Source: Poseidonia sp. (GTDB lineage Archaea > Thermoplasmatota > Poseidoniia > Poseidoniales > Poseidoniaceae). From it: a DNA stretch of 64,000 nucleotides. The stretch covers positions 17,299 to 81,298 of the forward strand of contig JBMZJQ010000001.1 of assembly GCA_049617635.1 (NCBI GenBank). The letters are read 5' to 3'. The notes beneath the pieces are model-generated. The model was not told the DNA's origin, made no database searches, and was given only the letters and a program-made list of their open reading frames with translations. Made by a program: the position numbers and the translations under genes. Shown here piece after piece: positions 10,896 through 24,491 of this stretch (positions are counted from its first letter, which is position 1; each line of letters starts with the position of its first letter).

Positions 10896-10939
10896 TGAAC
10901 GGAAGAAGAACAAAACGGAGTATCAATGTTCCCGAATCG

Positions 10940-12742
10940 TCATACGCTGAAGATACTGCTCGCACTTTCCAACAAGACGGCCGTGATCAATGAGGCTATG
11001 CCGGCCACCCAAGTGAGTTGAATCATCTGCCCGATGGCGCTTGTTCGTGTACCACCTCGAAGCCGAGTGGCGATGGAAGACACCGCCACGACCTGCATGA
11101 TAATGAGCAACGAGATGATGATTTTGAACATCCGGATGTTGTCGTCCACGGATGAGGCATCTTCCATGACCGGTAACGCAACACCGCCACCAAAGTCTGA
11201 AAGAGCACCGACATCGGTTCCCACCAGTCCAGTCGCCACCCCAGCGATAGCGTCACCCAACTGCAACACGATGGCCGTGGTGACGTTCAAGGAGGCAACG
11301 CTCGAAATCAACAACCCGAGCGCAACACCCCACATGGTGTTGGCTGACAGCGACCGACGGTTCCGTAGCGAAAGCAGGTTACCGACCGAACGGGACACCA
11401 TTTCGGCGGTTTCTGCAGGTTTTCCAGAGGATTGTGAACCCTCGATGTAAATGCGAGTGTATCGAGAAATCACGGCCGAGTTCGTGTCGGCGGTGAAGTA
11501 ATCCCAGGCTCTGTCGGAGTCAATGCGGGTGGCCAACCGTTTTTCAAGGCGGTCAATGGAGTTGTCAAGCATACCGAAATCAATGCCACGAAGGGCTTTG
11601 ATGGTCGCAGAGGGTTCGGCTGAACGCGCCTGCGCCGTTCCACCCAGAGCACGAATGAAATCCGGATAGGTCTCGTCGCGGCGTTGAATCTGACCCTCTT
11701 CTCGGCGCACCAAGAAAGCAGGAACAAGCAAGGGTGAAAACGGAATGGCAATGAACAGCAGCCCGTATTTATCCCATTGGGACGTGATGGTGTCCCAAAT
11801 CCAAATCAGCGTGAACACCGCCAAAACGAACAAGCCGGCGGTGATGGCCCCTGAAAGAAGCAAGGAACGACGGAAATTGATACGGAACGGTGTGTCCATT
11901 TGGTCCCTCGCAAAGGTCTGGTCCTTCGGAATTGTCGCCCGAAATGCGAACACTGCGCCGATTTGAATGAACATAAACAGAAGCGATGCGAGCAACAAAA
12001 ATCGCAAACGACTGGCGATTTCAATGGGTGTATCGTTGGCACTCCCGACCTCGAAAAGCACCAAATGAATGCCAGCGATCACCAAACCGAACAAGCCGGC
12101 GGTCACCAGCGAGACGTAAATCTCCTTGAGTGTATCCACCGACTCAAGGCGTGTGTCGTACAGCGTGTTGTACTGCTCAGCAATCGTTTCCTGCTCTGAG
12201 CGCATGAATTCGTCGATGGGTTGACCCGCTTCGATGGAGAACGCCATTCGGTCAAGGAAGTCCGACCACAGCGGTGAAGGGCTCTGATGAGCGACGATAC
12301 GGGCGGCTTCGGGAAGGGAAGTGTGCCATTTTTCGACCAAGGTCTCGATGCGTTGCACTTCCGAGGCCAACTCACCGTAATCTCGCATTTGTTTGAGAAT
12401 ATCAAAAATGGATTGGGCGCCCACTTCACCGATGGAAAGAATCCCCATACGCGTAATGAACATGTGCATCTCGGCTTCGATGAGGGTAGCTGAGCGTTGA
12501 ACTTCGAGCACCGGGTACGCCACGGCCGCCACCAAGGACATGGCGGTGAGCATAATGACGAACAGTACACCGGTAAAACCGGCGAACAAGGCGCCTTCAC
12601 CCAACCCTCCGGTGAGGAACACCAAGACGATGGCCGTCAGAAACGTCACGGCGACGATGGGCGCCACGTAGATGGCGAGGAAACGCCCGACGGGCATTTC
12701 AAGACGTCGAAGGGCAATGTGCCAAATTGGCATGCGCTCCAT
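10940..12742 (-). CDS. arlJ: archaellum assembly platform membrane protein ArlJ (FlaJ)
   Basis: 600-aa polytopic protein with TadC/GspF-like architecture, immediately downstream of arlI. Confidence 0.85.
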   Translation of the reverse strand: MERMPIWHIALRRLEMPVGRFLAIYVAPIVAVTFLTAIVLVFLTGGLGEGALFAGFTGVLFVIMLTAMSLVAAVAYPVLEVQRSATLIEAEMHMFITRMGILSIGEVGAQSIFDILKQMRDYGELASEVQRIETLVEKWHTSLPEAARIVAHQSPSPLWSDFLDRMAFSIEAGQPIDEFMRSEQETIAEQYNTLYDTRLESVDTLKEIYVSLVTAGLFGLVIAGIHLVLFEVGSANDTPIEIASRLRFLLLASLLFMFIQIGAVFAFRATIPKDQTFARDQMDTPFRINFRRSLLLSGAITAGLFVLAVFTLIWIWDTITSQWDKYGLLFIAIPFSPLLVPAFLVRREEGQIQRRDETYPDFIRALGGTAQARSAEPSATIKALRGIDFGMLDNSIDRLEKRLATRIDSDRAWDYFTADTNSAVISRYTRIYIEGSQSSGKPAETAEMVSRSVGNLLSLRNRRSLSANTMWGVALGLLISSVASLNVTTAIVLQLGDAIAGVATGLVGTDVGALSDFGGGVALPVMEDASSVDDNIRMFKIIISLLIIMQVVAVSSIATRLRGGTRTSAIGQMIQLTWVAGIASLITAVLLESASSIFSV

Positions 12743-12754
12743 GTCTCATCATCC

Positions 12755-14470
12755 TCACTTGTGATTGACCCCAACCCACGTGTCGATGGCGCGGTCGAAA
12801 TGCTCCCAACCGTTGGAGTAATACAAGCCCAGGAGGTCAAAGACATCGTCGTAATGCGTGAGGTCGCGGTCGGCCATGCGCTGAATAGCAGCCGCCCGGC
12901 GAAGCATTTCATCGTAGATGTCACGCTTGTTGGCAAACCCTGCCATGGCGGCGATCTTGTTCTCGAGGAGATGCGACTGGAACATACCGCGGAAGTAGTG
13001 CTTGTCTTTCACCGGGTCCCACTCAAACATACCACGGGTCAACACACCGTCGCTGTGCTTGTTGTACCCAATCACCTCATCAATTCCGGTGATACGACGA
13101 GCGATACCGCCGCCGGGTGCCTCGACGACTTCTTGGAAAATCGCAAAGTTGAGGTTGTCGAAGAAACGGATGGGGACGTTGATTGGGTCGCCGGTGAAAC
13201 GCTGAATCATCTTGACGATGGACGATGCGTGGAAGGTGGCAATGACCGGGTGACCGGTTTGCATAGCTTGGAACGCCGTGGCACCCTCAACACCACGGAT
13301 TTCACCGATGATGATGTAGCGAGGGCGGCTTCGCAACGCTGCCTTGAGTAGGTCAAACATTTCCACTCTCGAATCTTCGTTCTTGGCATCACGGGTGACC
13401 AGACGCTGCCAAATCTTGTGGCGCACCTTCACTTCAGGTGTGTCCTCTGCCGAGTAAATCTTGACGTTGTGGTCGATGAACGGCAAAATAGCATTCAGCG
13501 TGGTGGTCTTTCCGGAGGCCGTTTCTCCGGACACGAGAACGGACATGCCGTATTCGAGACATATCCAGATGTAGGCCGCTTGTTGGGCCGACATCGTCCC
13601 CCACTGGATGAGTTGAATCACCGAAATCGTTTCTTCGGCGAACTTACGGATGGTGAACGAAGGTCCGAGCATGGACACGTCGTCGGAGAAGATGATGTTG
13701 ATACGGGAACCGTCAAGCAGCACACCGTCGATGATGGGTTTGTTGTCCGAGACTGGTCGACCGATACGCTCGGACATGGCTCGAAGGTAACGAGAGAGCA
13801 ATTCCCGTTCCCTGAAACGGATGTTCGAGGTGACCATCCCAAACACCTTGTGGTCCATGTGGATGTGTTTGAGGCCAACCGAGTGAATATCTTCCAACAT
13901 TTCGTCAGAAAGCAAGGGTTCGAGAGGCCCGTTTCGAATAAGGTCACGAATCACAACGTAGGTGAGGCGCTCTCGTTGGGCCTGCGTGACCGTCAAGCGT
14001 TTGTCGTCCATTCCAACCAACTCCCACATACGACCTTGACGGCGAACGAGGTTGTTGGCTTCAGAATCGAGGATGGTGTAGCGCTCAATCATTTGTTGAA
14101 GGATGTTCTCAAATTCGGTGTCGGTGGTGAAGGAAGGAGCGGTTGGTGCCTCTTGAAGCAGGGTCTCAACGAGTTCACGTCGGATGTTTTCTTCCTCTTC
14201 GGTCAATTGCGGTTCAAGACCGAACCAGAGGACGGTCCCTCCACCGTCCTCGTCGGCAGGTGGTTCGTAGATATGGACAAAGATGGGTTCTCGAGTGACA
14301 TAAATCAGGTTCAGAGGCCGTTGTTTCTTGGCGTCTCGGTCAAGTGGGCCGTAGTAGATGGGGCGAGAGCCGTAACGCATCTCGAAATCCCGCACCCATT
14401 CGGCGACGTGGGGATAAGCAGCCATGACGCCGTTGAGGTCGCCTTTCGCAAATCGGGGTTCGTCGCTCAT
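12755..14470 (-). CDS. arlI: archaellum motor/assembly ATPase ArlI (FlaI), type II/IV secretion ATPase family
   Basis: Walker A GETASGKTTTLNA, Walker B-like PRYIIIGEIRG. GGAGGGGAG SD upstream of the ATG at 14470. Confidence 0.95.
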   Translation of the reverse strand: MSDEPRFAKGDLNGVMAAYPHVAEWVRDFEMRYGSRPIYYGPLDRDAKKQRPLNLIYVTREPIFVHIYEPPADEDGGGTVLWFGLEPQLTEEEENIRRELVETLLQEAPTAPSFTTDTEFENILQQMIERYTILDSEANNLVRRQGRMWELVGMDDKRLTVTQAQRERLTYVVIRDLIRNGPLEPLLSDEMLEDIHSVGLKHIHMDHKVFGMVTSNIRFRERELLSRYLRAMSERIGRPVSDNKPIIDGVLLDGSRINIIFSDDVSMLGPSFTIRKFAEETISVIQLIQWGTMSAQQAAYIWICLEYGMSVLVSGETASGKTTTLNAILPFIDHNVKIYSAEDTPEVKVRHKIWQRLVTRDAKNEDSRVEMFDLLKAALRSRPRYIIIGEIRGVEGATAFQAMQTGHPVIATFHASSIVKMIQRFTGDPINVPIRFFDNLNFAIFQEVVEAPGGGIARRITGIDEVIGYNKHSDGVLTRGMFEWDPVKDKHYFRGMFQSHLLENKIAAMAGFANKRDIYDEMLRRAAAIQRMADRDLTHYDDVFDLLGLYYSNGWEHFDRAIDTWVGVNHK

Positions 14471-14483
14471 CCATCTCCCCTCC

Positions 14484-15209
14484 TCAGCTCACCGCCGTGA
14501 TGTCGACGATGAAGCCCATGCCGGGCTCAACACGCCAACCGATGGACGATTGAATAGGTCCAGCAGCACGCAGGTAGCGTGTGACGATCATCGATCGCTT
14601 GAGGTCACCGCCGATCAGCGTCGTGGAGAGGTCCAACACCACTTCTGCTCCAGAACGGAGCAGGTGGAGCAACTTGGCATCCATCTCGTCGGCGTCAACG
14701 GTGAGCATCAACGTGCGTCCTGTGGAAGCGATTTTCCGCATGCGTTGAACCAATTCGAAACGCTCGGTTTCGGTGGTGTTCTCTGGCATCAAGGAACTGG
14801 CAGAATCGATCACAACGATGTCGGCGTGCTCAATGGCTTCGCTTTCAAGCACCTCGTTGAGGCCGACATCAGCGATGGGTTCAGCGATGGTTCCAAAGCG
14901 TGAAAACACCATTAACGCACCGCTGGCGAGGGCTTTTGTTACGCCGTATCCGATGGATTCCATCTGTTCAATCCAACCACGTGTCGTCAGTTCGGTCGTG
15001 ATGACCAAGACCTTCACGCCGTTTTCAAGAAGACCGTGCACGAAGCGTTGGCTGACGAGGGATTTTCCTGCACCCACCGGGCCTTGCAGCACGGCAAGAC
15101 TCCGATTCGGTATCCGAAGGCCGAGGGAATCGGCCAGACTATCGGTTTCAACCTCGTAGGGGAAGCCGTCTTCCACCGGCGTGGGGTTTTCGCCCAAGGC
15201 ATCAATCAT
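14484..15209 (-). CDS. arlH: archaellum KaiC/RecA-like ATP-binding protein ArlH (FlaH)
   Basis: Walker A GPVGAGKS and Walker B-like ADIVVIDS. ATG at 15209 overlaps the arlG stop as ATGATTGA. Confidence 0.85.
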   Translation of the reverse strand: MIDALGENPTPVEDGFPYEVETDSLADSLGLRIPNRSLAVLQGPVGAGKSLVSQRFVHGLLENGVKVLVITTELTTRGWIEQMESIGYGVTKALASGALMVFSRFGTIAEPIADVGLNEVLESEAIEHADIVVIDSASSLMPENTTETERFELVQRMRKIASTGRTLMLTVDADEMDAKLLHLLRSGAEVVLDLSTTLIGGDLKRSMIVTRYLRAAGPIQSSIGWRVEPGMGFIVDITAVS

Positions 15210-15690
15210 GCAATCGAACCTCCAAACTGATGGATGTTGAACCACGGTATCCACTGGTGACCTCAGACGAAACCGCCACGGTCAACGCAATATCGTCACC
15301 GGACGAGTACGACCAGGTTCCGGAGTCAACCGTGACCTCGAGCAGGCGCGTGTCGTCCCATTCCGTTCCGGTGGGAACAAGCGTATCGACGATGGAACCG
15401 GTCACAGACTCGCCATCAACGATGACCACGAGCGTGGAAGGGTCGAGCAGGTTCTCACCGATGTTCTGCAAATAGAACGTGATCTCCTGGTTGGTCGTGT
15501 CCAAATCCACCATCATCGGGTCGCCAGCAAAGGCCACACCTGTCGCCTGTTCAGCTTGGAGAGCGGCCACGTTGACCGTGCTGCTCTGCGCCATTTGGCC
15601 CCACTGATTGATCAGAAGGATACTGACGCTTCCCGACACCAAGAGGGCTGTGACCAGCATGATGAACGAGGATGAGCCGCCGTCTGCCAT
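15202..15690 (-). CDS. arlG: archaellum protein ArlG (FlaG)-like
   Basis: 162 aa with an archaellin-like N-terminal hydrophobic helix followed by a beta-rich domain. It is second after the archaellins in the canonical F-G-H-I-J order. GAGGTGAT SD. Confidence 0.6.
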   Translation of the reverse strand: MADGGSSSFIMLVTALLVSGSVSILLINQWGQMAQSSTVNVAALQAEQATGVAFAGDPMMVDLDTTNQEITFYLQNIGENLLDPSTLVVIVDGESVTGSIVDTLVPTGTEWDDTRLLEVTVDSGTWSYSSGDDIALTVAVSSEVTSGYRGSTSISLEVRLHD

Positions 15691-15699
15691 GGTATCACC

Positions 15700-16359
15700 T
15701 CATGCAAGGGGGAGTCCGACTGTTTGTCCGAGAACCGTCAGAGCGATTCGTTCGTACGAGGACGCTCCGTCTTCGGGCCACTCCACGACGATGGTTTCGC
15801 CGGGGTACCAGTTCGTGCTGTTGATCGTGGGGGTGTAGGCTGATGCAAGGTTGGTCGGTGCAGGACCGCTTGAACCGTCAAGGAAAATCCATCCATCTGC
15901 CAAACCAACCGTGGTCGAACCCACGTTGGTCATGTTGGCGTAGATGAAGTTGCCAATGTCGACGGTGAAAGTGGCCCCTGATGCTGACCCGGGTTGCCCG
16001 GTGGGGTCGACAATCACGGTGGGAGCCGAGGAATAATTACCGCGAATGGTGATGTACACGGTTTCAATTCCTCCAGAAGCGTCCACGGTGAATCCACCGA
16101 GGAAGCCTCCCGTTCCACCCGATGTGGTCAACGTCCCGTTCAGATAGCCGCTGCCGTTGCTGGCAACGGTGACGGACAGCACAGCGCCTTCCCACAGGGT
16201 CGCATCGTCAATTCGGATTTCAGGCGTAGCGTCGGCGGCCTCTTCGATGATCTCGAGACTGGCATCCAAGCGGTCGTCAAGTGTTTGGATTGCAATCGCA
16301 AACACCAACAACAGCGACGTGCCAATCACGAGAGCACCAATACCAACCGACGCACCCAT
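15700..16359 (-). CDS. arlF: archaellum protein ArlF (FlaF)-like, with Gly/Ser/Thr-rich insertion
   Basis: The N-terminus MGASVGIGALVIGTSLLLVF resembles the FlaF N-terminal helix, and a beta-rich domain follows. The position before arlG fits. GGAGGA SD. Confidence 0.6.
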   Translation of the reverse strand: MGASVGIGALVIGTSLLLVFAIAIQTLDDRLDASLEIIEEAADATPEIRIDDATLWEGAVLSVTVASNGSGYLNGTLTTSGGTGGFLGGFTVDASGGIETVYITIRGNYSSAPTVIVDPTGQPGSASGATFTVDIGNFIYANMTNVGSTTVGLADGWIFLDGSSGPAPTNLASAYTPTINSTNWYPGETIVVEWPEDGASSYERIALTVLGQTVGLPLA

Positions 16360-16362
16360 CCA

Positions 16363-17214
16363 TCATTCCTCCGATGTGCCTTGCCCTGCTCGCCAAGAGG
16401 CGACCATGGCCGAAAACAACAACAACTGACGGTGTGGCAGGTGATCCAACAAAGCGGAATCTGCGTCCCCTGGTTCAGCGAGCTGGACGATGGCCAACAC
16501 GTTGGATCCTTCGGGTTCCGTCAGCATGCCTGAATCGATGGCCTTCTGCGTAAAACTCACCGCCGCCATGCCCGACATGTGGTCGAGCAAGAGGGCAGCA
16601 ACCGCAGGTGCACCGGCAGAACCGCTGGCGTTCCCTGCCAATCCCAGCGTGTGGGGATTGGACAAGAAGGGGTTGGCGGCCAAGGCTTGCGCTTCGTACA
16701 ATTCGACGAGGCGCCCTTGGTCGTCTTCCATCATCCGGGCCGTTCCGCTGACATTCAACACTTCGCCGCTTGCCGAGATGATTCGTTCACCGGCAAAGCC
16801 GGTGTCGTCATCGTCCTCGTCTTCGGCAGCATCGTCCTCATTGACACTTGCAGCGGCCGCGGGGGCCTCTTCCAAGCGAATTTCGACCATGCGGAGGACA
16901 TCCTCCACCATGTCAAGACGACTGCTGATGAGCCGTTCAAGACCCGAAGTGTCGACGGTTGCCGTGCCAACAGGCTGCGGTACACTCGGTGGAGCGAGAC
17001 TCGCTGCGACGTTGGGCACGCTTTGCTGGCTGTTGATCCGAGCCTTGGTGGGCCCCGGCGAGATGGTCCAAGCATCCTCTTCCGTGAGCATCCCTTGTTC
17101 AGGGAACGGCACCTGTTCGATTGCCACGTTGGACAAAATCTTCAGGCGCTCTTCGCTCAGGGACTGGTCTGCGCTTTTGCCTTCTCCCGAGTTTCCAGTA
17201 AATGGCCAAACCAT
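16363..17214 (-). CDS. acidic cytoplasmic protein of unknown function in the ArlC/D/E (or ArlX) slot of the archaellum operon
   Basis: 283 aa with no TM or signal peptide and the low-complexity segment EDDAAEDEDDDDTG. GGAGGT SD 6 nt before the ATG at 17214. Flanked by arlB and arlF. Confidence 0.7.
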   Translation of the reverse strand: MVWPFTGNSGEGKSADQSLSEERLKILSNVAIEQVPFPEQGMLTEEDAWTISPGPTKARINSQQSVPNVAASLAPPSVPQPVGTATVDTSGLERLISSRLDMVEDVLRMVEIRLEEAPAAAASVNEDDAAEDEDDDDTGFAGERIISASGEVLNVSGTARMMEDDQGRLVELYEAQALAANPFLSNPHTLGLAGNASGSAGAPAVAALLLDHMSGMAAVSFTQKAIDSGMLTEPEGSNVLAIVQLAEPGDADSALLDHLPHRQLLLFSAMVASWRAGQGTSEE

Positions 17215-17229
17215 TTCAGAACCTCCTTC

Positions 17230-17253
17230 TGAGAATCCAAGGAAGGATTCTCA
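17230..17253 (-). promoter_or_regulatory. perfect hairpin (9-bp stem, 6-nt loop) in the arlB / downstream-gene spacer
   Basis: tGAGAATCC-aaggaa-GGATTCTCa, read directly. It lies between the arlB stop (17261) and the SD of the next gene. Confidence 0.5.
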
Positions 17254-17260
17254 AAAGTGA

Positions 17261-17890
17261 TCAGACCACAACTGCGCCACGGCTTGCATCGTTGACCTTC
17301 AGGACGTCGTAGGTTGAACCGCCACCAACAACGTGAACGTAGAGCGTACCCTTGATGTTCTCGTTGAACATGTGGTCGGGAGCACAATCGTTGTTGGCGT
17401 TGTCGTCAATGTCGAGGGAAACACGGTACGAAATACCTGCTTCCACGGTGGAGACAGCGGTGGGCGTGGCAGATGCATCATCGAGAGCAAAGACAATGCT
17501 CGCTGGTGTAGCAGCGCCGTCGGTGAAGTCACCGGCCAAGCGGTCGGTGGTAGCAACACCAGCACCGCCACCGTCAGGGTCTTCGCAGAAGACCTGCCAG
17601 AGGATGCCGTCCACAGCGGTGTCGTCGGAACCGGCTGCCAATCGGAAGTACATCACGATCGATTCAGAAGGTTCGTCAACGAACACGTTGAGAATCTGAA
17701 TCTTTCCAGACATCTCGTCCGTCGTGTCGTCACCGGTCGATTGGGCGTTCTGTTGCAACTTTTCAGCGGTTTGAATGATCACCGCTGCAGCCACGGCGGC
17801 CACAAGGATCAGGGCAATGAACACAATCATTGCACCGATACCGATGGCTGCCAGTTTGTCGTTTTCCATGTGTGTGTTATTCTTCTTCAT
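17261..17890 (-). CDS. arlB: archaellin ArlB (FlaB), copy 1
   Basis: Class III signal peptide plus the conserved hydrophobic N-terminus AIGIGAMIVFIALILVAAVAAAVIIQT. ATG at 17890 has a GAGGTGA SD 5 nt upstream; the track start 17899 is GTG. Confidence 0.9.
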   Translation of the reverse strand: MKKNNTHMENDKLAAIGIGAMIVFIALILVAAVAAAVIIQTAEKLQQNAQSTGDDTTDEMSGKIQILNVFVDEPSESIVMYFRLAAGSDDTAVDGILWQVFCEDPDGGGAGVATTDRLAGDFTDGAATPASIVFALDDASATPTAVSTVEAGISYRVSLDIDDNANNDCAPDHMFNENIKGTLYVHVVGGGSTYDVLKVNDASRGAVVV

Positions 17891-17900
17891 GTTGTTCACC

Positions 17901-18551
17901 TCAAACTACTGAGTCACCCACCGTGGGGGCGCTTCCGTATTGGAGTTCCTCGTACGTGCTACCGCCGCTGTCGACGGTAAAGAGAAGGATGTGGTCGGCG
18001 TTGGCCGTTGGGATGCACTCATCGATCTCCATCACCACGACGTACGTGGTGCCAGGATCAATGGTGATGACGGGGGTCGCCACGGTTTCACCGTTGCCGG
18101 TGTGTATTGTGGCCCCTGCCAATGTTCCTTGAGCGAACACCGTGGAATCGGCGTTAGTGCCGGTACCGCCAACGGCACCGTCGTCACCGAGACTCTCGCA
18201 GATCACCGTGTAACCGATGTCGTCACCCTGTGTGGGCTGGGAGCCTGGCGCCAATTCAAACGTCACAAACAGTTCTGCTGCATCAGCATCACCGCCTGTG
18301 CCGCCCAGGGCGTTGTCAGCACCAAGGTCCAGTTCCTCAATGATGACGTTGAGGAGCGTCATCTTGGTAGACATCTGCTCTTGGGTGTCATCACCGCTGG
18401 CTTGTGCGTTTTGCTGCAACTTCTCGGCCGTCTGGATGATGACCGCTGCTGCAACCGCTGCAACGAGAATCAACGCAATGAACACAATCATTGCACCAAT
18501 ACCAATGGCAGCGAGGTTATCGCTTTCTTCTTTCTTCATTTCTTGCTTCAT
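17901..18551 (-). CDS. arlB: archaellin ArlB (FlaB), copy 2
   Basis: It has the same N-terminal 40-residue core as copy 1 and a divergent C-terminal domain. GGTGAT SD 3 nt before the ATG at 18551. Confidence 0.9.
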   Translation of the reverse strand: MKQEMKKEESDNLAAIGIGAMIVFIALILVAAVAAAVIIQTAEKLQQNAQASGDDTQEQMSTKMTLLNVIIEELDLGADNALGGTGGDADAAELFVTFELAPGSQPTQGDDIGYTVICESLGDDGAVGGTGTNADSTVFAQGTLAGATIHTGNGETVATPVITIDPGTTYVVVMEIDECIPTANADHILLFTVDSGGSTYEELQYGSAPTVGDSVV

Positions 18552-18610: not shown

Positions 18611-19564
18611 TCAGAGTTCACCTCCCTGACCGAGGTTGATGCGAAGCGGCATGCGTATGATGGCCACCTCGTCTGGAGCAAGATTTCTGATGAAGGGGAC
18701 TTCTTCTGCGACGAAGCCTGAAGGAATCCAGGGGGTAAGGAGGACCTCTGACAACGGTTCCATGGCCCGATTTTGCACGCGCATGGTCACTGTAATTTCA
18801 CCCGAGCGCATCTCGTATGCGGTAGCGACGGACAGTTTTCGGGTCAACGGGATGTCTTCAGAACTCAGTCGGAAGTTGGGTTTGATTTCAAAGCGAAGCG
18901 GGATGTTTCCTCCCGGGGCGATGATGGGGAGGTCCACGTTGGCAGGCGTGGCGGTCCATCCATCGGGGACCGGGGGCTTCAGGCGGAGCATGGGCATCGG
19001 AATCGGACCGTCATTGATGATGCGGACCAACAGCACACCGGACTCACCGCCTGCTGGCCAACGCGTGTCAACACCCATCCAAAAGTGGCGGAAGAGGAAG
19101 GGGTTGAGGGTGGAGGTGTTGCCGCCGATCATGTCTTCCAGCAAATCTTCTACTTCGGTGGTGGAGGCTCGAATATCACCCATTTCTGCGGCAGCCGTGG
19201 CTTCACGCAGCTTGTAGAGAATACGTTCTGCCTCCTCGAGGGTGATGTGCTTGTGAACCAACAAGCGGTGAAGCATGGCGATGCTTCGGCGCAGGGTGAG
19301 CACGTCCTCTTCCAACTCGTCCAAGGTGCGTTCGGCTCGCTTGATGGTTTTCTTGGCTTTCGAAAGTTGGTGAATACCAAGGTAGACCTTGGCTTCGGCC
19401 AAATCCATCTCGGTCTCGGTCAACGAGGGGTTTTCTCGCCGAGCCGCCTGACGCGCAATTCGCTCAAGCGTCTGAGAGGCTTCCAAGATACCCTGCTCCC
19501 GCGCAGCACGGTCCTCCTCAAGCATGTCGCTTGGCGTGTCCATGGCAAAGGTCTCGTCAGCCAT
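18611..19564 (-). CDS. coiled-coil N-half plus beta-sandwich C-half protein, no signal peptide, unknown function
   Basis: 317 aa from ATG 19564, with a perfect GGAGGTG SD 7 nt upstream. The ATG overlaps the stop of the giant upstream gene (ATGGCTGA). Charged helical N-half. The C-half contains LLVRIINDGP and VTMRVQNRAM, which are CARDB-like strands. Confidence 0.75.
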   Translation of the reverse strand: MADETFAMDTPSDMLEEDRAAREQGILEASQTLERIARQAARRENPSLTETEMDLAEAKVYLGIHQLSKAKKTIKRAERTLDELEEDVLTLRRSIAMLHRLLVHKHITLEEAERILYKLREATAAAEMGDIRASTTEVEDLLEDMIGGNTSTLNPFLFRHFWMGVDTRWPAGGESGVLLVRIINDGPIPMPMLRLKPPVPDGWTATPANVDLPIIAPGGNIPLRFEIKPNFRLSSEDIPLTRKLSVATAYEMRSGEITVTMRVQNRAMEPLSEVLLTPWIPSGFVAEEVPFIRNLAPDEVAIIRMPLRINLGQGGEL

Positions 19565-22500
19565 CGCTTTCCACCTCCGTGGATGCATCAATGTCTTCTG
19601 AGTTCGGGCTCAGGTCAACGGGATCTTTGGCGACCTCGCCTCCGGATGCTGAGGCGACTGATGGAACAGGTTCACCGAGTATCGCACCGAAATCCAAGCC
19701 TTCATCGGCCAAATCGTTGAGCAAGCGGGCGGGGTCGTTCAAGTCACGCTCGATGCGGATGGACTTGACTTCTGCATCGGTCATGCGGCCGTAGAGGTTG
19801 CCGTACATCTTGTCCGAGCGCTTGAGCAGGTACCACACACCAAGCATGATGGCGAAGAAATAGACGGCCATGGCCGCCAAGTTGTTTTGATCGGCGGAGA
19901 GTTGTGGCGGCAATCCAAGCACGATGGCGAGCATCCCCAGCACGGGGATGGAGAGAATGATGGTCAGTTGGCGTCGACTGTCGGTCAGGGCAACGAAATG
20001 GTCGGAGTAAACGGTCGAGATGCCCTTCCGTGCACGCTGATAATCCTCGTGAATCAAACGGAATTCTTCGCTTGACTTCCAAGTCATGCGCCAAATCCAC
20101 AGCGCACAGAGAATCAGCACGGCTGGACCCCAGTACTGGACATGGAACAAATGGAAGGCGAATCCGAAGGCGATCACGCCGGCGTAGACGCCTCCGAGTT
20201 GCCACTTCTCAGATTGTGTCGAAAGGCGAACGAAAACAAACGAAAGCAGGAAGGCGACCACACAGGCCACGAATGCAACGGAGAGGTCGGGGGACCACGA
20301 GCGAACCGTTTCTTGGCCGAGCTCGACGGATTGACCGTCTCGTTGCACGGCACGGGAGACGTCGTTGGCCTCGTTGTTGCCTTCACCGACGTAGAGGAAG
20401 CCGAGCGACGCATCGCATTGAATGTCTTTGCTCACTTCCCACCAATCGATGGTTCCGGGACGAACATCCCAGACGAAGGTGTGCGTTTCTTGAGAACCCA
20501 AGAGAGGAACGATGTCCGGTTGACTCAATATCTCCACATCGCCGTGACAGTCCAATGCAGCGGTGATTCCGAGTGCTTGGGCGGTGCCAAGGTTACGAAC
20601 ATCCACGCTGTAGGTGGTCTCTTGTCCCTCGAAGAAGGCATCGGGGTCGGCTGGACCCTGGTCCTCGATGGACGGGTCGGCAAACACAGCGAGTTTGTAG
20701 GTGAAAATGGCCTGGTCAAACACGGTGTATGCGTTGTTTTCATCGGGATGATAGAGTCGGAATTTCAAATCCCAACCGTCTCCGGCCAGGATGTTTGGTG
20801 AGGTAGGCGCGTCAACCACCAACTGAATGGGGTCGGTCGTGACCCACGGCTGACGGGTTGGAAGCGTCAACCGAGACTCAGCGCCAAGTGAGGTCAAACC
20901 GCATTCCTGGTTGAGGTCAAGAGGGAAGTCGGTGTTGTCAATGCGTACAGCAAAGGACCATTCGTAAAGCGATTCGTTTTGATCGAGTTCCTCAACGTCC
21001 AGCAAACGTTCGGCATCGCACAGTTCCAACTCGTAGGCGACAGCACTCTCAGGCCCGGTGGGAATGTGGGAATAATCGATGGAATAGACCGTCGGACCGT
21101 TTGAGGGATTGACCGCAGTATCGCCGTCCTCGTGGAACCGGTCCATGCGAAGTTCGGTGGTGTATTCGGCGCTTCCTTGCACCCCCGCGTCCACCGGGGC
21201 AATGGATACGATGAGGTTGGCTGCAAGGGTCAGGGCCGGTTCTGGTGCCACGGCTCGAACGGTGAACGAGAACGGTGTTGCCACCCCTCGTTGTAGACTG
21301 AGTGTTGACGGGGCTGCGTTTGAGACTTCCCAATCGGTGCTTGGCAGGGTCAAACCACCCTGAAGCAAAGTGTAGGTCACATCAACATCAATGTCGGTGT
21401 TCCCGGTGTTGGTGATGATCACGTCCCATGTACGGTCGTAACCACGGTGGTAGTATTTCTCGCTGGGCCAGTTTTCAACTTCAACGATGAAAATTGGCGC
21501 CACGATGAAGTTGAAACGGTGCACCTTCAGTTCGTCCTGGGTGGTGGCGTTCAGGATACGCATCGTCACAGGGATGATGGTGCCGTCGAGCATGGTGTTG
21601 TCATCACCAAGGGCGGGAACCTCCACGACGATGGACCCGCTTTGGGTTTCGTCGACAGCGAGGGTCAGCGGTTGGGTAGCAGGCGAAACGCTCCATCCCC
21701 CGCTCACGTTCGTTTCGATGATGATGTTTTCAACCAGGTTTCCGCTGTTGGTGATCGTGAAGTTCACGGTTTGATCTTCGCCCGGAATCACACCGATTTG
21801 GTCCGGCGTGTCGACAATGATTCCGTGTTCTTCGCTGATGTTCCCGAGAATGTCCGCTGAGAGGTTCAATCCCGAATCGGCATTGGACACCCAAAGCGTT
21901 GCTTTGTAATCGGTGGCGGCCAACGCATCGATGGTGGGCGTCAGTCGAACGCGTACGGTGGCTTCGTAGCCAGCCCCAATGGCGACCACGGAGGGTGTTT
22001 CAAGCACGTAGTCCACCTCGCCGGCCTGCGAAGTGTCCAACCACACCGAGAACGTGGCAGGCGTGTTCCCGATGTTGCTAACGACGACGCTGGTGGTGAT
22101 GGATTCGCCGATGGTCAGATTGATTTCCTGACTGGTCGGGCTGAGCGATGCATTCACTTTCTCACCCACGCGGATGGGAACATCGAAACTCGAAATGTAC
22201 GTCCCAGACGTCAATTCCTGGATTTCGATGGTCAAACGCTCAACGCTGTTCGCTGGAGCCATCGGGTCGGTGGTTATCACAAGCGGGAAGGTTTTGATGT
22301 GGTCGGTGGCGTTTGAGGGGTAGTTGGCCACGTCGGCAGGTACCGAGAGCACCGTGGTTGAGGGCATGAGGCTGCCCGAAGAAAAAGAGGCGACCCAGCC
22401 TTGGGGAAGGGAATCGGTCATGATCAAACGATAAGATGTCATGTTGTTGCCGGTGTTCGCCAACGAAATGTCGTACGACGTTTCTTCACCAACCATGACA

Positions 22501-24491
22501 TCAAGCGTGGTTCCGTTGTGCCCCTCAGCTCCCAACACAGGCGGGATGTTGATGTTGAGCGATTGCGTCACCGCTGAGGGGATCACGCCCGAACCTTGGT
22601 GCACGCTTCCAAGCGTGGGTTCTGCCGTGATGAGGACCGAAAGGGTTCCAGAAACCGGATAGTCATCATCGGGGCCTTGGATGGTCAACACCGCATCACT
22701 AGAGTCGCCGAGCGACATGTCGGTGAACAACGAGGGCGTCAAACCAATGGCCCAGCGGTCGGCTTCCTCGAAGCCTCCCGATGAATCGGATGTGAACACA
22801 GGCATATCCAAGGTCAAGGTGGCGTTCACGGTCTCGGCAAGTTCGCTGACGAGGTTGTGACGAACCTCAACATTCAGGTCAAGAATTTCCTCAAGACCCA
22901 TTCCGAGGCGAGCTTGCATGACTTGCTCCACCGTCATGTCGATGCTATCGGTGGGCAAGCCCGGGTCAACCACGATGACGGGAAGGATCGATACGGGTGT
23001 GGCGTTGAGGTGAGGCACACCGCCGTTGGTCGAAGCCGCTTGCACCCAAACCGACATCGAGTCACCAGCGCGATTGTACTCCGCTGAAACCAGAGGACGC
23101 TTGATCACCGGTGGCGTCACCGACAGTGAGACGTTCACCGATTCACCCGGGGCCAATGTCCCGGTGCTCTGGCTGGACAGGTCAAGATCCCAGTTGATTG
23201 GGTTGGTGGAGATGCCGGCATTCAGAGCGAAGGTGCTTGGAGCATTACCGGTGTTTTCGATCTTGACTTGGAGCGTGGTGCTCTGTCCGGGCGTCAAACT
23301 CTTCGAATCAGCGTCCATTTCCACGTGCGCTTCGTAGGATTCGCTGGCCAAAACGGTGGTCGTCACCACCTTGGTGAAACTGCCACCATTGGACTCAACG
23401 GTCAGTGTCACGAGTTCTGAATCGGTTCGAAGTGCGTCCGAAGGAACAGCGACTTGGACAAAGACGGATGTGGTGACGTTGGGGGAAATGGTCGCCGTTT
23501 GGCTTGAAGGAGACATACTTGAAACCCATCCGTTCACGTTGGATTGGCTCACGGTGTAGTCGTCAGAAGCGACGCCCGTGTTCTTCACGATGAAGGTGAG
23601 CGTGGAGGTTTGTCCTGGCTCAACGCTGCGGTCGTGCGCAGCGGTCAATGTGAAGTCGTAGTTCGAAAACACCACACGTTGGTTGAGGAATTCAACCGAA
23701 GTGGTCCAGCCAGTACCCTCGGCGTACATCGTTCCGACGACGTCCCATTCACCGGTCCGAGCCGTGGCGTCAAACGTCATCGCCACCTCTTCGGCAACGG
23801 CTCCACCGTTGTACAATGAACCTGGTCGTACCACTGGAACGATGTTGGACATCTCAGAAAACGTGTTGCCCGTCCCGACCTGCGTGGCGTTTATCCAGAA
23901 GCGAGCCGATTGATTCTTCACGCCGTCGTTGCGCACGGCGATGTCGAAGTCGTGAACGGTTTGTGACCACACCACACTGTTGCCTCCGGTCATGGGTTGG
24001 GGAATGTTGACCACAGGAACGCTGGAGGCTTGATAGCGGCTCACATTGACGATCATTTCATCCTGATTGTTGTTGTTGTTCACGTCGGCTGGACCTGACA
24101 CGCGGGCCTTGAGAATCTGGTTGTTGCCGATGGTGGCCGACCACGAAAACACGGTCACGGAACTTGAGGCACCGGCTTGAATCACGCCAAGGTCCGTGCT
24201 TTCGAGCACCACATCGCCAGAAGATGCCGTTCCTTGAAGCAACAGGGAAAGCGAGGCTTGGCCGGCAGCAAGGCCGATGTTGCGAACTTGAATGCGGACG
24301 ATGTGGGTGGCATCTTCGACTTCGATGCCTCCGCCAAGCACCATTGAACCAGCGTCATCGAGCGTGAACGAAGTGACGACGAAATCCGGTGTGGAGCGCC
24401 CTTCGGCACCGGAAGCGAGCGGAGACAAACTGGTGACCAGCAGCAGCGTGACCAAGGCGAGGGGGAGGGTCCGATTAGACAGGGTCGGCAC
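19557..24491 (-). CDS. giant envelope protein: signal peptide, at least 9 CARDB/NEW3-like beta-sandwich modules, about 5 C-terminal TM helices, acidic cytoplasmic tail
   Basis: Continuous ORF. Recurrent x-[VI]-x-N-x-G strands: IQVRNIG, IAVRNDG, FIVKNTG, VKIENTG, ISLANTG, VVVSNIG, FTITNSG, VIITNTG, VDVRNLG. Signal peptide SNRTLPLALVTLLLVTSLSPLASG. The start is uncertain: GTG 24491 lies inside GGAGGTG, and CTG 24482 lies 6 nt after it. The track extension to 24722 overlaps the upstream gene and looks non-coding. Confidence 0.85.
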   Translation of the reverse strand: MPTLSNRTLPLALVTLLLVTSLSPLASGAEGRSTPDFVVTSFTLDDAGSMVLGGGIEVEDATHIVRIQVRNIGLAAGQASLSLLLQGTASSGDVVLESTDLGVIQAGASSSVTVFSWSATIGNNQILKARVSGPADVNNNNNQDEMIVNVSRYQASSVPVVNIPQPMTGGNSVVWSQTVHDFDIAVRNDGVKNQSARFWINATQVGTGNTFSEMSNIVPVVRPGSLYNGGAVAEEVAMTFDATARTGEWDVVGTMYAEGTGWTTSVEFLNQRVVFSNYDFTLTAAHDRSVEPGQTSTLTFIVKNTGVASDDYTVSQSNVNGWVSSMSPSSQTATISPNVTTSVFVQVAVPSDALRTDSELVTLTVESNGGSFTKVVTTTVLASESYEAHVEMDADSKSLTPGQSTTLQVKIENTGNAPSTFALNAGISTNPINWDLDLSSQSTGTLAPGESVNVSLSVTPPVIKRPLVSAEYNRAGDSMSVWVQAASTNGGVPHLNATPVSILPVIVVDPGLPTDSIDMTVEQVMQARLGMGLEEILDLNVEVRHNLVSELAETVNATLTLDMPVFTSDSSGGFEEADRWAIGLTPSLFTDMSLGDSSDAVLTIQGPDDDYPVSGTLSVLITAEPTLGSVHQGSGVIPSAVTQSLNINIPPVLGAEGHNGTTLDVMVGEETSYDISLANTGNNMTSYRLIMTDSLPQGWVASFSSGSLMPSTTVLSVPADVANYPSNATDHIKTFPLVITTDPMAPANSVERLTIEIQELTSGTYISSFDVPIRVGEKVNASLSPTSQEINLTIGESITTSVVVSNIGNTPATFSVWLDTSQAGEVDYVLETPSVVAIGAGYEATVRVRLTPTIDALAATDYKATLWVSNADSGLNLSADILGNISEEHGIIVDTPDQIGVIPGEDQTVNFTITNSGNLVENIIIETNVSGGWSVSPATQPLTLAVDETQSGSIVVEVPALGDDNTMLDGTIIPVTMRILNATTQDELKVHRFNFIVAPIFIVEVENWPSEKYYHRGYDRTWDVIITNTGNTDIDVDVTYTLLQGGLTLPSTDWEVSNAAPSTLSLQRGVATPFSFTVRAVAPEPALTLAANLIVSIAPVDAGVQGSAEYTTELRMDRFHEDGDTAVNPSNGPTVYSIDYSHIPTGPESAVAYELELCDAERLLDVEELDQNESLYEWSFAVRIDNTDFPLDLNQECGLTSLGAESRLTLPTRQPWVTTDPIQLVVDAPTSPNILAGDGWDLKFRLYHPDENNAYTVFDQAIFTYKLAVFADPSIEDQGPADPDAFFEGQETTYSVDVRNLGTAQALGITAALDCHGDVEILSQPDIVPLLGSQETHTFVWDVRPGTIDWWEVSKDIQCDASLGFLYVGEGNNEANDVSRAVQRDGQSVELGQETVRSWSPDLSVAFVACVVAFLLSFVFVRLSTQSEKWQLGGVYAGVIAFGFAFHLFHVQYWGPAVLILCALWIWRMTWKSSEEFRLIHEDYQRARKGISTVYSDHFVALTDSRRQLTIILSIPVLGMLAIVLGLPPQLSADQNNLAAMAVYFFAIMLGVWYLLKRSDKMYGNLYGRMTDAEVKSIRIERDLNDPARLLNDLADEGLDFGAILGEPVPSVASASGGEVAKDPVDLSPNSEDIDASTEVESDG

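What the first reader, a model, noticed from the sequence alone, without database searches (positions are those of the whole stretch)
16363..17214. Unknown acidic cytoplasmic protein occupies the ArlC/D/E (or ArlX) slot of the archaellum operon
Known archaellum operons carry arlC/D/E (euryarchaeal type, coupling to chemotaxis proteins) or arlX (crenarchaeal type) between the archaellins and arlF. Here that position holds a single 283-aa ORF. It has a strong SD (GGAGGT, 6-nt spacing), no TM or signal peptide, a low-complexity acidic centre (EDDAAEDEDDDDTG) and a more ordered C-terminal third. I do not recognise FlaC, FlaD/E or FlaX sequence features in it. It may be a lineage-specific motor-associated component.
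Basis: partly seen in the sequence, partly recalled or inferred. Interest (0 to 1): 0.6.

Follow-up and report, generated by a model that had tools for sequence, protein, structure and literature searches.

The report
Divergent ArlC-like archaellum protein of Poseidoniales
The unannotated 283-residue gene in the swimming-motor (archaellum) operon of this abundant marine archaeon is real, expressed and conserved, and it is most likely a very diverged relative of the known motor protein ArlC rather than something wholly new.

Summary
The ORF (16363-17214, minus strand) is real. It has an SD GGAGGT 6 nt before the ATG, no TM segment, an acidic linker and an ordered C-terminal domain. It lies between arlB2 and arlF in an arlB-arlB-X-arlF-G-H-I-J operon of a Poseidonia (Marine Group II) archaeon.

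Its family is narrow: 73 representatives among 1.84 billion proteins, all labelled hypothetical. Every member with readable context, down to 24% identity, occupies this same slot. The structured blocks are under purifying selection (dN/dS 0.04-0.11) and the linkers are nearly neutral. Marine metatranscriptome contigs join it to arlB2, arlF, arlG and arlH.

It is not featureless. Its most conserved element, a helix ending in Y-E-x6-N-P-F, is also the invariant core of genuine ArlC (Pfam FlaC_arch), in the same structural context. The sequence support is weak: Pfam E 0.016-0.27 in 5 of 14 aligned sequences (2 later dropped as chimeric), hhalign P 1e-4 to 7e-4, probability 27-58%. The motif had no background hits in 1.9 million ORF residues. 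No similarity to ArlD/E was detected, and the TM helix that defines ArlX is absent.

Verdict: a lineage-specific, strongly derived ArlC-type cytoplasmic motor component, probably the only ArlC/D/E-slot protein in a lineage reported to lack chemotaxis genes. It is a new variant of a known kind, of moderate interest.

The parts
16363..17214 (-). ORF283 coding sequence (283 aa plus stop), the ArlC/D/E-slot protein of the Poseidoniales archaellum operon
   Evidence: ORF list. About 1080 homologs were found. The same slot is kept in 139 MGIIa loci and in 4 divergent clades. Whole-gene dN/dS is 0.13. RNA contigs cover it.
17221..17226 (-). Shine-Dalgarno GGAGGT, 6 nt upstream of the ATG
   Evidence: Read from the sequence. 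An SD-like GGAGG is present at this position in 98% of 138 loci.
17226..17257 (-). Conserved intercistronic stem-loop (13-bp stem, 6-nt loop). It starts 4 nt after the arlB2 stop codon, and its last G is the first G of the SD.
   Evidence: Fold. A stem-loop is present in 138 of 138 loci, with stems unrelated in sequence between clades. The median z-score is -3.8 over 94 distinct sequences.
17035..17214 (-). N-terminal region, residues 1-60. It holds the conserved N-terminus M-x-W-P-F, a short helix (15-29) and the conserved EEDAWTISPGP motif in a segment predicted to be disordered.
   Evidence: Alignments A1 and A3. dN/dS is 0.07 although pLDDT is low.
16867..16953 (-). Amphipathic helix, residues 88-116 (DTSGLERLISSRLDMVEDVLRMVEIRLEE). 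It is a likely oligomerisation or coiled-coil element.
   Evidence: AF2 helix 90-116 with pLDDT 82-86. It has the lowest dN/dS in the protein, 0.04. The coiled-coil role is inferred from the heptad-like hydrophobic spacing.
16789..16866 (-). Acidic low-complexity linker, residues 117-142
   Evidence: pLDDT is below 50. dN/dS is 0.61. Length and composition vary and the region is not acidic in divergent clades.
16750..16788 (-). Small beta-hairpin, residues 143-155 (ERIISASGEVLNV)
   Evidence: AF2 strands 144-146 and 152-154. G-(D/E)-x-I and G-E-V are conserved in the family.
16663..16728 (-). Helix 163-180 plus N181-P182-F183-L184, the ArlC-type signature L-x-x-L-Y-E-x6-N-P-F (the core Y173-F183 maps to 16666-16698)
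   Evidence: E174, N181, P182, F183 and L184 are invariant in the family. Matches: Pfam FlaC_arch model positions 30-54 of 55; hhalign to real ArlC, P 1e-4 to 7e-4, with 1 of 150 shuffles scoring as high. The motif had 0 background hits in 1.89 million ORF residues. The AF2 model of real ArlC has the same helix-then-NPF arrangement.
16615..16659 (-). Gly/Ser-rich linker, residues 186-200
   Evidence: pLDDT is below 50. dN/dS is 1.09.
16378..16614 (-). C-terminal four-helix domain, residues 201-279
   Evidence: AF2 helices 202-212, 215-228, 233-246 and 261-279, with pLDDT 83-91 for most of the domain. dN/dS is 0.10. It has no PDB fold match and no significant match to Arch_fla_DE.
17261..18551 (-). 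Two archaellin genes, arlB1 (17901-18551) and arlB2 (17261-17899), at the head of the transcript
   Evidence: PF01917 E 1.7e-18 and 1.2e-19. RNA contig coverage begins just downstream of 18543.
10940..16359 (-). Downstream motor genes: arlF 15700-16359, arlG 15202-15690, arlH 14484-15254, arlI 12755-14470, arlJ 10940-12742
   Evidence: Pfam and NCBIfam matches. One 3,165-nt RNA contig joins arlB2, ORF283, arlF, arlG and arlH.

Best explanation
ORF283 is a soluble cytoplasmic subunit of the Poseidoniales archaellum motor, and the best reading is that it is a strongly diverged ArlC-type protein. It keeps the one element that is invariant in ArlC, a helix whose last two turns carry Y-E and which is capped by N-P-F. 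Around that element it has lineage-specific modules joined by flexible, nearly neutrally evolving linkers. These modules are a constrained N-terminal region that is largely predicted disordered, an amphipathic helix, a small beta-hairpin and a C-terminal four-helix domain. Shown: gene reality, selection, co-transcription with the arl genes, strict synteny, the shared motif and its shared structural context. Inferred by analogy with ArlC/D/E and ArlX: the protein oligomerises through helix 88-116 and docks on the ArlH/ArlI core. There it would form the peripheral cytosolic scaffold or stator that ArlC plus ArlD/E provide in other Euryarchaeota. Because Marine Group II genomes are reported to lack chemotaxis genes, it would serve only the structural and assembly role, not the CheF-coupled switching role. 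That could explain why no ArlD/E-type protein is detectable.
For: - **Position:** it lies between arlB and arlF, where canonical operons carry arlC plus arlD/E. Examples are Ferroglobus, Methanocaldococcus and Argoarchaeum and Oxyplasma (PMC12448462).
- **Synteny:** the slot is kept in 139 MGIIa loci and in clades only 24-38% identical.
- **Transcription:** one RNA contig spans arlB2, ORF283, arlF, arlG and arlH, and four metatranscriptomes cover the gene.
- **Selection:** dN/dS is 0.04-0.11 in the structured blocks and 0.6-1.1 in the linkers.
- **Motif, Pfam:** FlaC_arch is hit by 5 of the 14 sequences in alignment A2 (2 of which were later dropped as chimeric). The hit is always at the LYE...NPF motif and always at model positions 30-54 of 55.
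- **Motif, hhalign:** against 24 genuine ArlC proteins, P is 6.8e-4 for the whole protein and 1e-4 (probability 58%) for the middle region, in register. One of 150 column shuffles scored as high.
- **Motif, HMM search:** an ArlC HMM ranks ORF283-family members 1st to 3rd among 1,328 six-frame ORFs.
- **Motif, background:** YE-x6-NPF occurs 151 times in 1.89 million ORF residues, always in this family or in real ArlC.
- **Structural context:** in ArlC, helix 27-97 is followed by N98-P99-F100. In ORF283, helix 163-180 is followed by N181-P182-F183.
- **Evolutionary rate:** ORF283 diverges as fast as ArlB, ArlF and ArlG (27-42% identity where ArlI keeps 66-79%). The window's own ArlF scores only 23 bits against a 110-bit cutoff, so loss of detectable homology is expected.
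- **Literature:** ArlC/D/E lack TM helices, occur in variable fusions and bind ArlH (PMC8978795, PMC7534055). MGII lacks identifiable chemotaxis genes (PMC6461757).
Against: - The similarity to ArlC covers only about 25 columns. All Pfam scores (12-16 bits) are below the gathering threshold of 27.8 bits.
- hhalign probability is 27-58%, and the window's own protein gets no Pfam hit at all.
- The conserved G-x-S-K-x-T that follows NPF in ArlC is absent.
- In ORF283 the long helix is about 45 residues upstream of the motif, not continuous with it. Deleting the linker in silico did not raise the Pfam score (15.6 bits).
- The C-terminal domain has no counterpart in ArlC (P 0.78).
- Ring formation, ArlH binding and stoichiometry are untested inferences.
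- Contig depth is a poor measure of expression.
- I did not check the absence of chemotaxis genes in this genome; it rests on Rinke et al. only.
Confidence: 0.55

Rival explanations
1. ORF283 is a lineage-specific invention with no ancestry in ArlC/D/E. It is still an archaellum component, and the Y-E-x6-N-P-F helix cap is convergent or was captured as a short module.
For: No family model is matched above threshold. The PDB holds no sequence or fold relative. The family is confined to 73 representatives among 1.84 billion proteins. Outside about 25 columns nothing aligns with ArlC. The review literature already accepts that some lineages (Thaumarchaeota) fill this role with an unidentified protein (PMC8978795).
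Against: The element shared with ArlC is the most conserved element of both families. It lies in the same structural context and the same operon slot, and it had no background hits in 1.9 million residues. Independent origin of all of this is less parsimonious than rapid divergence, which is shown for the neighbouring ArlF and ArlG.
Confidence: 0.22
2. ORF283 is a single-chain ArlC-ArlD/E fusion, comparable to haloarchaeal ArlCE. On this reading the C-terminal four-helix domain is a degenerate Arch_fla_DE domain.
For: ArlC/D/E occur in many fusion arrangements (PMC8978795, PMC7534055). The size (283 aa) and layout resemble ArlD, which is 271-317 aa. The shared layout is an N-terminal region, a helix, an acidic linker and a C-terminal helical domain. 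By eye, [VI]-D-x-G-[MW]-[LI]-[TS]-E at a helix junction and D-H-[LI]...L-L-F at the start of the last helix line up with the Arch_fla_DE motifs YVDIGWISE and DHLxSLLFIE. An unconstrained hhalign path follows the same correspondences.
Against: The comparison is not statistically supported. hhalign gives P 0.3 for the C-terminal domain against a 7-sequence Arch_fla_DE profile. Shuffled templates score as high in 9 of 150 global and 46 of 150 local trials. ArlD/E HMMs find nothing in the window or in the divergent loci. No family member hits Pfam PF04659 even at E up to 10. Several indels are needed to make the by-eye motifs line up. The reference profile is thin (7 sequences), so this is a weak negative.
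Confidence: 0.15
3. ORF283 is not a structural motor part. It would be an accessory factor, such as an archaellin or assembly chaperone or a regulator, that merely rides in the operon.
For: The protein is modular, with long disordered segments and constrained short motifs (M-x-W-P-F, EEAWTISP) typical of binding adaptors. No direct evidence places it in the motor.
Against: It shows strict one-to-one synteny with the motor genes across all clades and is tightly spaced with arlF (a 3-nt gap). No other candidate for the cytosolic ring is present in the operon. In canonical systems, every gene product in this slot is a motor component required for archaellation (PMC7534055, PMC8978795).
Confidence: 0.06
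4. ORF283 is an ArlX-type (crenarchaeal) ring protein.
For: The only support is functional analogy: a single protein in the accessory slot of a lineage without chemotaxis.
Against: ArlX is defined by an N-terminal transmembrane helix (PMC8978795), and ORF283 has none (maximum hydropathy 1.37; AF2). The operon has the euryarchaeal gene order arlF-arlG. No ArlX reference sequences were available for a direct comparison.
Confidence: 0.02

Closest known systems
ArlC (FlaC), Pfam PF05377 FlaC_arch: the euryarchaeal archaellum accessory protein proposed to be part of the cytosolic ring or switch complex
   Same: It occupies the same operon slot, immediately after the archaellins and before arlF. It is a soluble protein without a TM segment. 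It has the same invariant signature, hydrophobic-x-x-L-Y-E-x6-N-P-F, at the end of a helix capped by NPF. The layout is mainly helical with a disordered segment near the N-terminus.
   Different: ORF283 is twice as long (283 aa against 140-170 aa). The Pfam score is below threshold, and zero for the window protein itself. It lacks the G-x-S-K-x-T that follows NPF in ArlC and lacks ArlC's C-terminal helical hairpin. The long helix is separated from the motif by an acidic linker and a beta-hairpin. It has an extra conserved N-terminal region and a C-terminal four-helix domain with no detectable relatives.
ArlD/ArlE (FlaD/E), Pfam PF04659 Arch_fla_DE, and fused forms such as haloarchaeal ArlCE
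   Same: It shares the slot and a comparable length. Both have a helix, then a low-complexity linker that is acidic in this window's clade, then a C-terminal all-helical domain. There is precedent for ArlC fused to an E-type domain.
   Different: No statistically supported similarity was found. ArlD/E bind CheF in chemotactic archaea, and Marine Group II is reported to lack chemotaxis genes (PMC6461757).
ArlX (FlaX), the crenarchaeal cytosolic ring protein
   Same: It has the presumed functional niche: a single scaffold protein in a motor of a lineage without chemotaxis.
   Different: ArlX has an N-terminal TM anchor and ORF283 has none. Gene order and phylogenetic context are euryarchaeal.
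The 'hypothetical proteins' drawn in the Marine Group II motility operon by Tully 2019 (PMC6336850, Fig. 4)
   Same: This is almost certainly the same gene. The paper reports several syntenic orthologous proteins without annotation, conserved among MGIIa and partly among MGIIb.
   Different: The parts of the paper I read give no domain analysis, link to ArlC or functional proposal.

Membership tests
ArlC / Pfam FlaC_arch (PF05377) | Score at or above the Pfam gathering threshold (27.8 bits) | tested here: not met
   The window protein has no hit at E up to 1. Family members score 12-16 bits, E 0.016-0.27. A linker-deleted consensus scores 15.6 bits.
ArlC / Pfam FlaC_arch (PF05377) | The invariant core L-Y-E-V-V-S-x-Q-I-N-P-F-V-G. 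Y, E, V, N, P, F and G are invariant in 24 real ArlC proteins. | tested here: inconclusive
   E, N, P and F are invariant in the ORF283 family, and Y and the preceding L are nearly invariant, all with identical spacing. The V at +2 and the G after NPF(V) are not conserved. hhalign gives P 1e-4 to 7e-4 and probability 27-58%. The motif had 0 background hits in 1.89 million residues.
ArlC / Pfam FlaC_arch (PF05377) | The motif lies at the C-terminal end of a long coiled-coil helix capped by NPF | tested here: inconclusive
   The helix-then-NPF cap is the same in both AF2 models. The ORF283 helix is 18 residues long against 71 in ArlC, and the family's long helix (90-116) is separated from the motif by about 45 residues.
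ArlC / Pfam FlaC_arch (PF05377) | Encoded directly downstream of the archaellin genes in an arl operon with arlF-G-H-I-J | tested here: met
.
ArlC / Pfam FlaC_arch (PF05377) | Part of the motor's cytosolic complex, with ArlH-dependent localisation and a requirement for archaellation | not testable with these tools
   This is known for H. volcanii ArlCE and ArlD (PMC7534055).
ArlD/E / Pfam Arch_fla_DE (PF04659) | Presence of the Arch_fla_DE domain (LKWIEFL...YVDIGWIS...DHIxSLLFIE) | tested here: not met
   No Pfam hit at E up to 10 in any of the 14 aligned sequences. hhalign gives P 0.3. Shuffled templates score as high in 9 of 150 and 46 of 150 trials. ArlD/E HMMs find nothing. The reference profile had only 7 sequences.
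ArlX (FlaX) | A single N-terminal transmembrane helix anchoring a cytosolic coiled-coil ring domain | tested here: not met
   There is no hydrophobic segment (maximum KD 19-residue window 1.37), and AF2 shows no TM-like helix at the N-terminus.
ArlX (FlaX) | Sequence similarity to ArlX proteins | not tested
No ArlX-named model appeared in any Pfam or NCBIfam scan.

The most novel reading that the evidence does not exclude
ORF283 is a minimal, single-polypeptide replacement for the whole ArlC/D/E complex in a chemotaxis-free euryarchaeal lineage. On this reading, the helix-cap Y-E-x6-N-P-F that it alone retains is the universal docking element by which ArlC-type proteins attach to the ArlH/ArlI core. 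That would single out, by natural reduction, the one part of ArlC/D/E needed for motor assembly as opposed to chemotactic switching. It would also give a direct mutational target in model archaea.
Probability: 0.3. Interest if true: 0.6.

Novelty: new variant of a known kind. Interest (0 to 1): 0.42.

Why it matters
The composition and role of the archaellum's cytosolic ring (ArlC/D/E or ArlX) is one of the least understood parts of this motor. Reviews state that the positions and stoichiometry of ArlC/D/E are unknown, and that some lineages use a 'yet to be identified' protein. Marine Group II archaea are reported to be the most abundant planktonic archaea in ocean surface waters (PMC6461757), and whether their archaella drive swimming or adhesion is debated.

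Three things follow if their operon carries one strongly reduced ArlC-type protein and no ArlD/E:
- The 'hypothetical' gene gains a testable annotation.
- The finding fits the reported link between ArlD/E and CheF-based chemotaxis.
- The Y-E-x6-N-P-F helix cap is marked as the evolutionarily indispensable piece of ArlC. It can be mutated in Haloferax or Methanococcus.

This is an incremental advance, not a new kind of system.

Tried and rejected
1. Direct Pfam, NCBIfam and PDB-sequence searches with the window protein found nothing. NCBIfam's silence is uninformative, because genuine ArlC, ArlD and ArlE also get no Arl-named hit there.
2. A PDB profile search with the family alignment gave only spurious coiled-coil or short-helix hits, E at least 0.097.
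3. Foldseek of the AF2 model against the PDB gave a best E of 0.57. The CtsR C-terminal four-helix bundle recurs weakly (Pfam E 0.01-0.04; Foldseek E 2.4), and I regard it as generic helical-bundle resemblance.
4. The plasmid collection holds no archaellum operon that could supply reference ArlC/D/E sequences. The supplementary alignments of PMC12448462 are images.
5. The genome and metagenome locus scans returned only relatives at least 59% identical, because the best 80 are kept. I reached the divergent contexts by exact look-up instead.
6. Synthetic FlaC_arch-like baits were written from memory and used only as fishing hooks. Pfam scored them at 72-87 bits. They retrieved 3 and then 101 real PF05377 proteins. 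No conclusion rests on the synthetic sequences.
The structural comparison of the C-terminal domain with ArlD/E could therefore not be made.
8. The idea that up326 is an ArlD/E- or ArlC-like partner because of its invariant NPF was not supported (hhalign P 0.003-0.03, misaligned). It also has zero depth in the four metatranscriptomes, none of whose contigs link it to the arl genes.
9. RNAalifold on a MAFFT alignment of the intercistronic hairpin gave no structure, because the stems share no sequence. I replaced it with per-sequence folds.
10. The cluster-member look-up gave no useful taxonomy for the divergent clades.
Full report
**Observation.** The finding is accurate as a description. A 283-codon ORF lies at 16363-17214 on the minus strand. 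Its ATG is preceded by GGAGGT with a 6-nt spacer. It has no hydrophobic segment long enough for a TM helix: the maximum 19-residue Kyte-Doolittle mean is 1.37. Residues 126-139 form the acidic run EDDAAEDEDDDDTG. AlphaFold2 gives a confident C-terminal helical domain and disordered linkers.

The surrounding genes on the same strand are two archaellins, followed by ArlF, ArlG, ArlH, ArlI and ArlJ. The archaellins match PF01917. ArlF matches weakly (23 bits), ArlG at 56 bits, ArlH at 179 bits, ArlI at 673 bits and ArlJ at 393 bits. ORF283 ends 3 nt before the arlF start codon.

The protein's acidity (pI 4.18) is not special, because all arl neighbours have pI 4.05-5.6. Source labels on close homologs place the window in Poseidonia, in Marine Group IIa of the Thermoplasmatota.

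**Is it a real, conserved, expressed gene?** Yes.
- About 1,080 homologs were found, all unnamed or labelled 'hypothetical'.
- An exhaustive HMM search of 1.84 billion representative proteins found only 73 representatives, many of them fragments, so the family is narrow.
- In 139 loci from genomes and metagenomes (59-85% identity), the gene order is invariant wherever the contig reaches: big surface protein, 326-aa protein, arlB x2, ORF283, arlF-G-H-I-J.
- Four divergent clades (24-38% identity: P0156, P0179, P0146, P0142) carry their homolog in exactly the same slot.
- Against 130 homologs, dN/dS is 0.04-0.11 in the five conserved blocks, 0.61 in the acidic linker and 1.09 in the Gly/Ser linker. 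dS is near saturation, so these ratios are approximate. The pattern fits structured modules joined by flexible tethers.
- Four independent marine metatranscriptomes contain near-identical RNA contigs over arlB1 to arlH. One 3,165-nt contig joins arlB2, ORF283, arlF, arlG and the start of arlH. Coverage begins just upstream of arlB1, and the two upstream syntenic genes have zero depth. Contig depth is a poor quantitative measure, and DNA carry-over cannot be excluded.

**Anatomy.** Alignments and AF2 give this layout:
- a conserved N-terminus, M-x-W-P-F;
- a short helix at 15-29;
- a segment predicted to be disordered but strongly constrained, containing EEDAWTISPGP;
- a Pro/Val-rich spacer;
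- an amphipathic helix at 90-116 (pLDDT 82-86, the lowest dN/dS in the protein);
- a variable linker, which is acidic only in this clade;
- a small beta-hairpin at 144-154;
- a helix at 163-180 ending in N181-P182-F183;
- a Gly/Ser linker;
- a four-helix domain at 202-279 (pLDDT 83-91 for most of it).

The residues invariant across the whole family cluster at E174, N181, P182, F183 and L184, with further ones in the C-terminal domain.

**Relation to ArlC.** The window protein itself hits nothing in Pfam. Five of the 14 sequences in alignment A2 (2 later dropped as chimeric) touch Pfam FlaC_arch. The hit is always at the L-x-x-L-Y-E-x6-N-P-F-L motif and always at model positions about 30-54 of 55, with E 0.016-0.27.

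To test this properly I needed genuine ArlC sequences. No public annotated source was reachable, so I wrote FlaC_arch-like baits from memory and had Pfam score them (72-87 bits). I used them only to retrieve real proteins. This gave 101 proteins with a precomputed PF05377 annotation, many named FlaC by NCBI, JGI or UniRef, from Methanococcales, Archaeoglobales and Methanosarcinales.

In 24 of these, the invariant residues are Y, E, V, N, P, F and G of LYEVVSxQINPFVG. The tests against this reference set gave:
- hhalign of the ORF283 family against them aligns 25 columns in register: P 6.8e-4, probability 27%.
- With only the middle region as query, P is 1e-4 and probability 58%.
- One of 150 column-shuffled templates scored as high.
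- An HMM built from real ArlC ranks ORF283-family members 1st to 3rd among 1,328 six-frame ORFs, again through this motif, at weak E-values of 0.025-0.7. The window's own ORF283 was not among the hits reported.
Every occurrence is in this family or in a real ArlC.
- In AF2 models of both proteins, the motif occupies the last turns of a helix that stops exactly at NPF. In ArlC this is H27-97 then N98-P99-F100. In ORF283 it is H163-180 then N181-P182-F183.

Beyond the motif the two proteins do not align. ArlC's G-x-S-K-x-T and its C-terminal helical hairpin are missing. ORF283 has extra modules at both ends.

**Relation to ArlD/E and ArlX.** I took seven genuine Arch_fla_DE proteins from the neighbourhoods of real arlC genes. 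By eye, two motifs of that domain (YVDIGWISE and DHIxSLLFIE) resemble AIDSGMLTE and DHLPHRQLLLFSA in ORF283's C-terminal domain, at comparable helix boundaries.

The statistics do not support this resemblance. hhalign gives P 0.3. Shuffled templates score as high in 9 of 150 global and 46 of 150 local trials. The ArlD/E HMMs find nothing. The reference profile is thin, and the planned structural comparison was not possible, so this is a weak negative.

ArlX is defined by an N-terminal TM helix (PMC8978795), which ORF283 lacks. I could not obtain ArlX sequences for a direct comparison.

**Why weak similarity is expected.** Between this window and the divergent clades, ArlI keeps 66-79% identity, ArlH 47-54% and ArlJ 50-55%. 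ArlB, ArlF, ArlG and ORF283 all fall to 27-42%. The window's own ArlF reaches only 23 bits against a 110-bit cutoff and has no Pfam hit. The peripheral archaellum proteins of this lineage are therefore generally at the edge of detectability.

**Most likely function.** In canonical euryarchaeal operons, the slot holds ArlC plus ArlD/E. These proteins lack TM helices, occur in many fusion arrangements, depend on ArlH for localisation and bind the chemotaxis adaptor CheF. They are proposed to form the cytosolic ring seen by cryo-ET (PMC8978795, PMC7534055). Thermoplasmatales relatives still have arlC and arlD (PMC12448462). Marine Group II genomes are reported to lack identifiable chemotaxis genes (PMC6461757). 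A 2026 preprint notes that the presence of arlCDE tracks CheF.

My best reading (confidence 0.55) is this. ORF283 is a strongly derived ArlC-type subunit that alone supplies the scaffold and assembly role of the cytosolic complex. It would oligomerise through helix 88-116 and dock through the conserved helix cap and/or the C-terminal domain. The CheF-coupled ArlD/E part would have been lost or degraded beyond recognition. Everything after 'ArlC-type subunit' is inference.

**Prior knowledge and novelty.** Tully 2019 already drew conserved unannotated genes in the MGII motility operon and noted their synteny (PMC6336850), so the existence of the gene is not new. The link to the ArlC signature, the modular anatomy, the selection pattern and the transcription evidence appear to be new. 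I rate it a new variant of a known kind, of moderate interest.

**Side observation.** A stem-loop lies between the last arlB stop codon and the SD of this gene (window 17226-17257). A stem-loop at this position is present in all 138 loci checked. Stem sequences are unrelated between clades, and the folds are much more stable than shuffled controls. It probably sets the archaellin-to-accessory expression ratio, through mRNA 3'-end stabilisation, partial termination or SD occlusion. I did not pursue this beyond the structural conservation.

Noticed in passing
window 17226-17257 (minus strand), between the arlB2 stop codon (17261-17263) and the ORF283 SD (17221-17226): A perfect 13-bp stem with a 6-nt loop (CUUUUGAGAAUCC / GGAUUCUCAGAAG). 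It starts 4 nt after the arlB2 stop codon and overlaps the first G of the SD. A stem-loop at this position is present in 138 of 138 homologous loci. There are 58 distinct stems, unrelated in sequence between clades. In pairwise comparisons, both sides changed with the pair kept 3,392 times, against 485 one-sided changes. The median z-score is -3.8 over 94 distinct sequences. It probably controls the archaellin-to-accessory-gene expression ratio, by mRNA stabilisation, partial termination or SD occlusion. One RNA contig reads through it.
   Followed up: partly
window 18611-19591 (minus strand), 'up326': A conserved 326-aa protein directly upstream of arlB1 in all clades. It has a helical N-terminal half, an invariant NPF[LMH][FYI]xxFWMG motif and a beta-sandwich C-terminal half (weak NPCBM_assoc/CARDB hits). 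It overlaps the giant upstream gene by 35 nt. It is not significantly related to ArlC, ArlD/E or ORF283 (hhalign P 0.003-0.03). It has zero depth in the metatranscriptomes that cover the arl genes, so it seems to belong to a separate unit with the surface protein.
   Followed up: partly
window 19557-24722 (minus strand), 'big1721': A 1,721-aa protein with repeated Ig/CARDB-like regions and C-terminal hydrophobic helices. Counterparts of 1,393-1,563 aa are syntenic with the archaellum operon in every clade examined. The 2026 TFF preprint describes S-layer-like Ig-fold proteins next to archaellum loci in Methanococcales and Thermococcales, and this gene may be the Poseidoniales counterpart.
   Followed up: no
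window 15700-16359 (ArlF) and 15202-15690 (ArlG): The stator proteins are extremely divergent. ArlF scores 23 bits against a 110-bit NCBIfam cutoff and has no Pfam hit. It varies from 132 to 219 aa between clades. Automated annotation of MGII genomes will miss arlF as well as ORF283.
   Followed up: partly
window 10464-10913 (minus strand), 'dn149': A small predicted membrane protein directly downstream of arlJ. It is conserved at that position in most MGIIa loci but is absent or replaced in the divergent clades. For example, a 913-aa protein follows arlJ in L143.
   Followed up: no
databases (not the window): NCBIfam release 20 appears to hold ArlF, ArlG, ArlH, ArlI and ArlJ models but none for ArlC, ArlD or ArlE, since genuine ArlC, ArlD and ArlE get no such hit. 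PGAP-style annotation therefore cannot name slot proteins like this one. The PDB sequence search also found no relative of an Arch_fla_DE protein (best E 0.71).
   Followed up: yes
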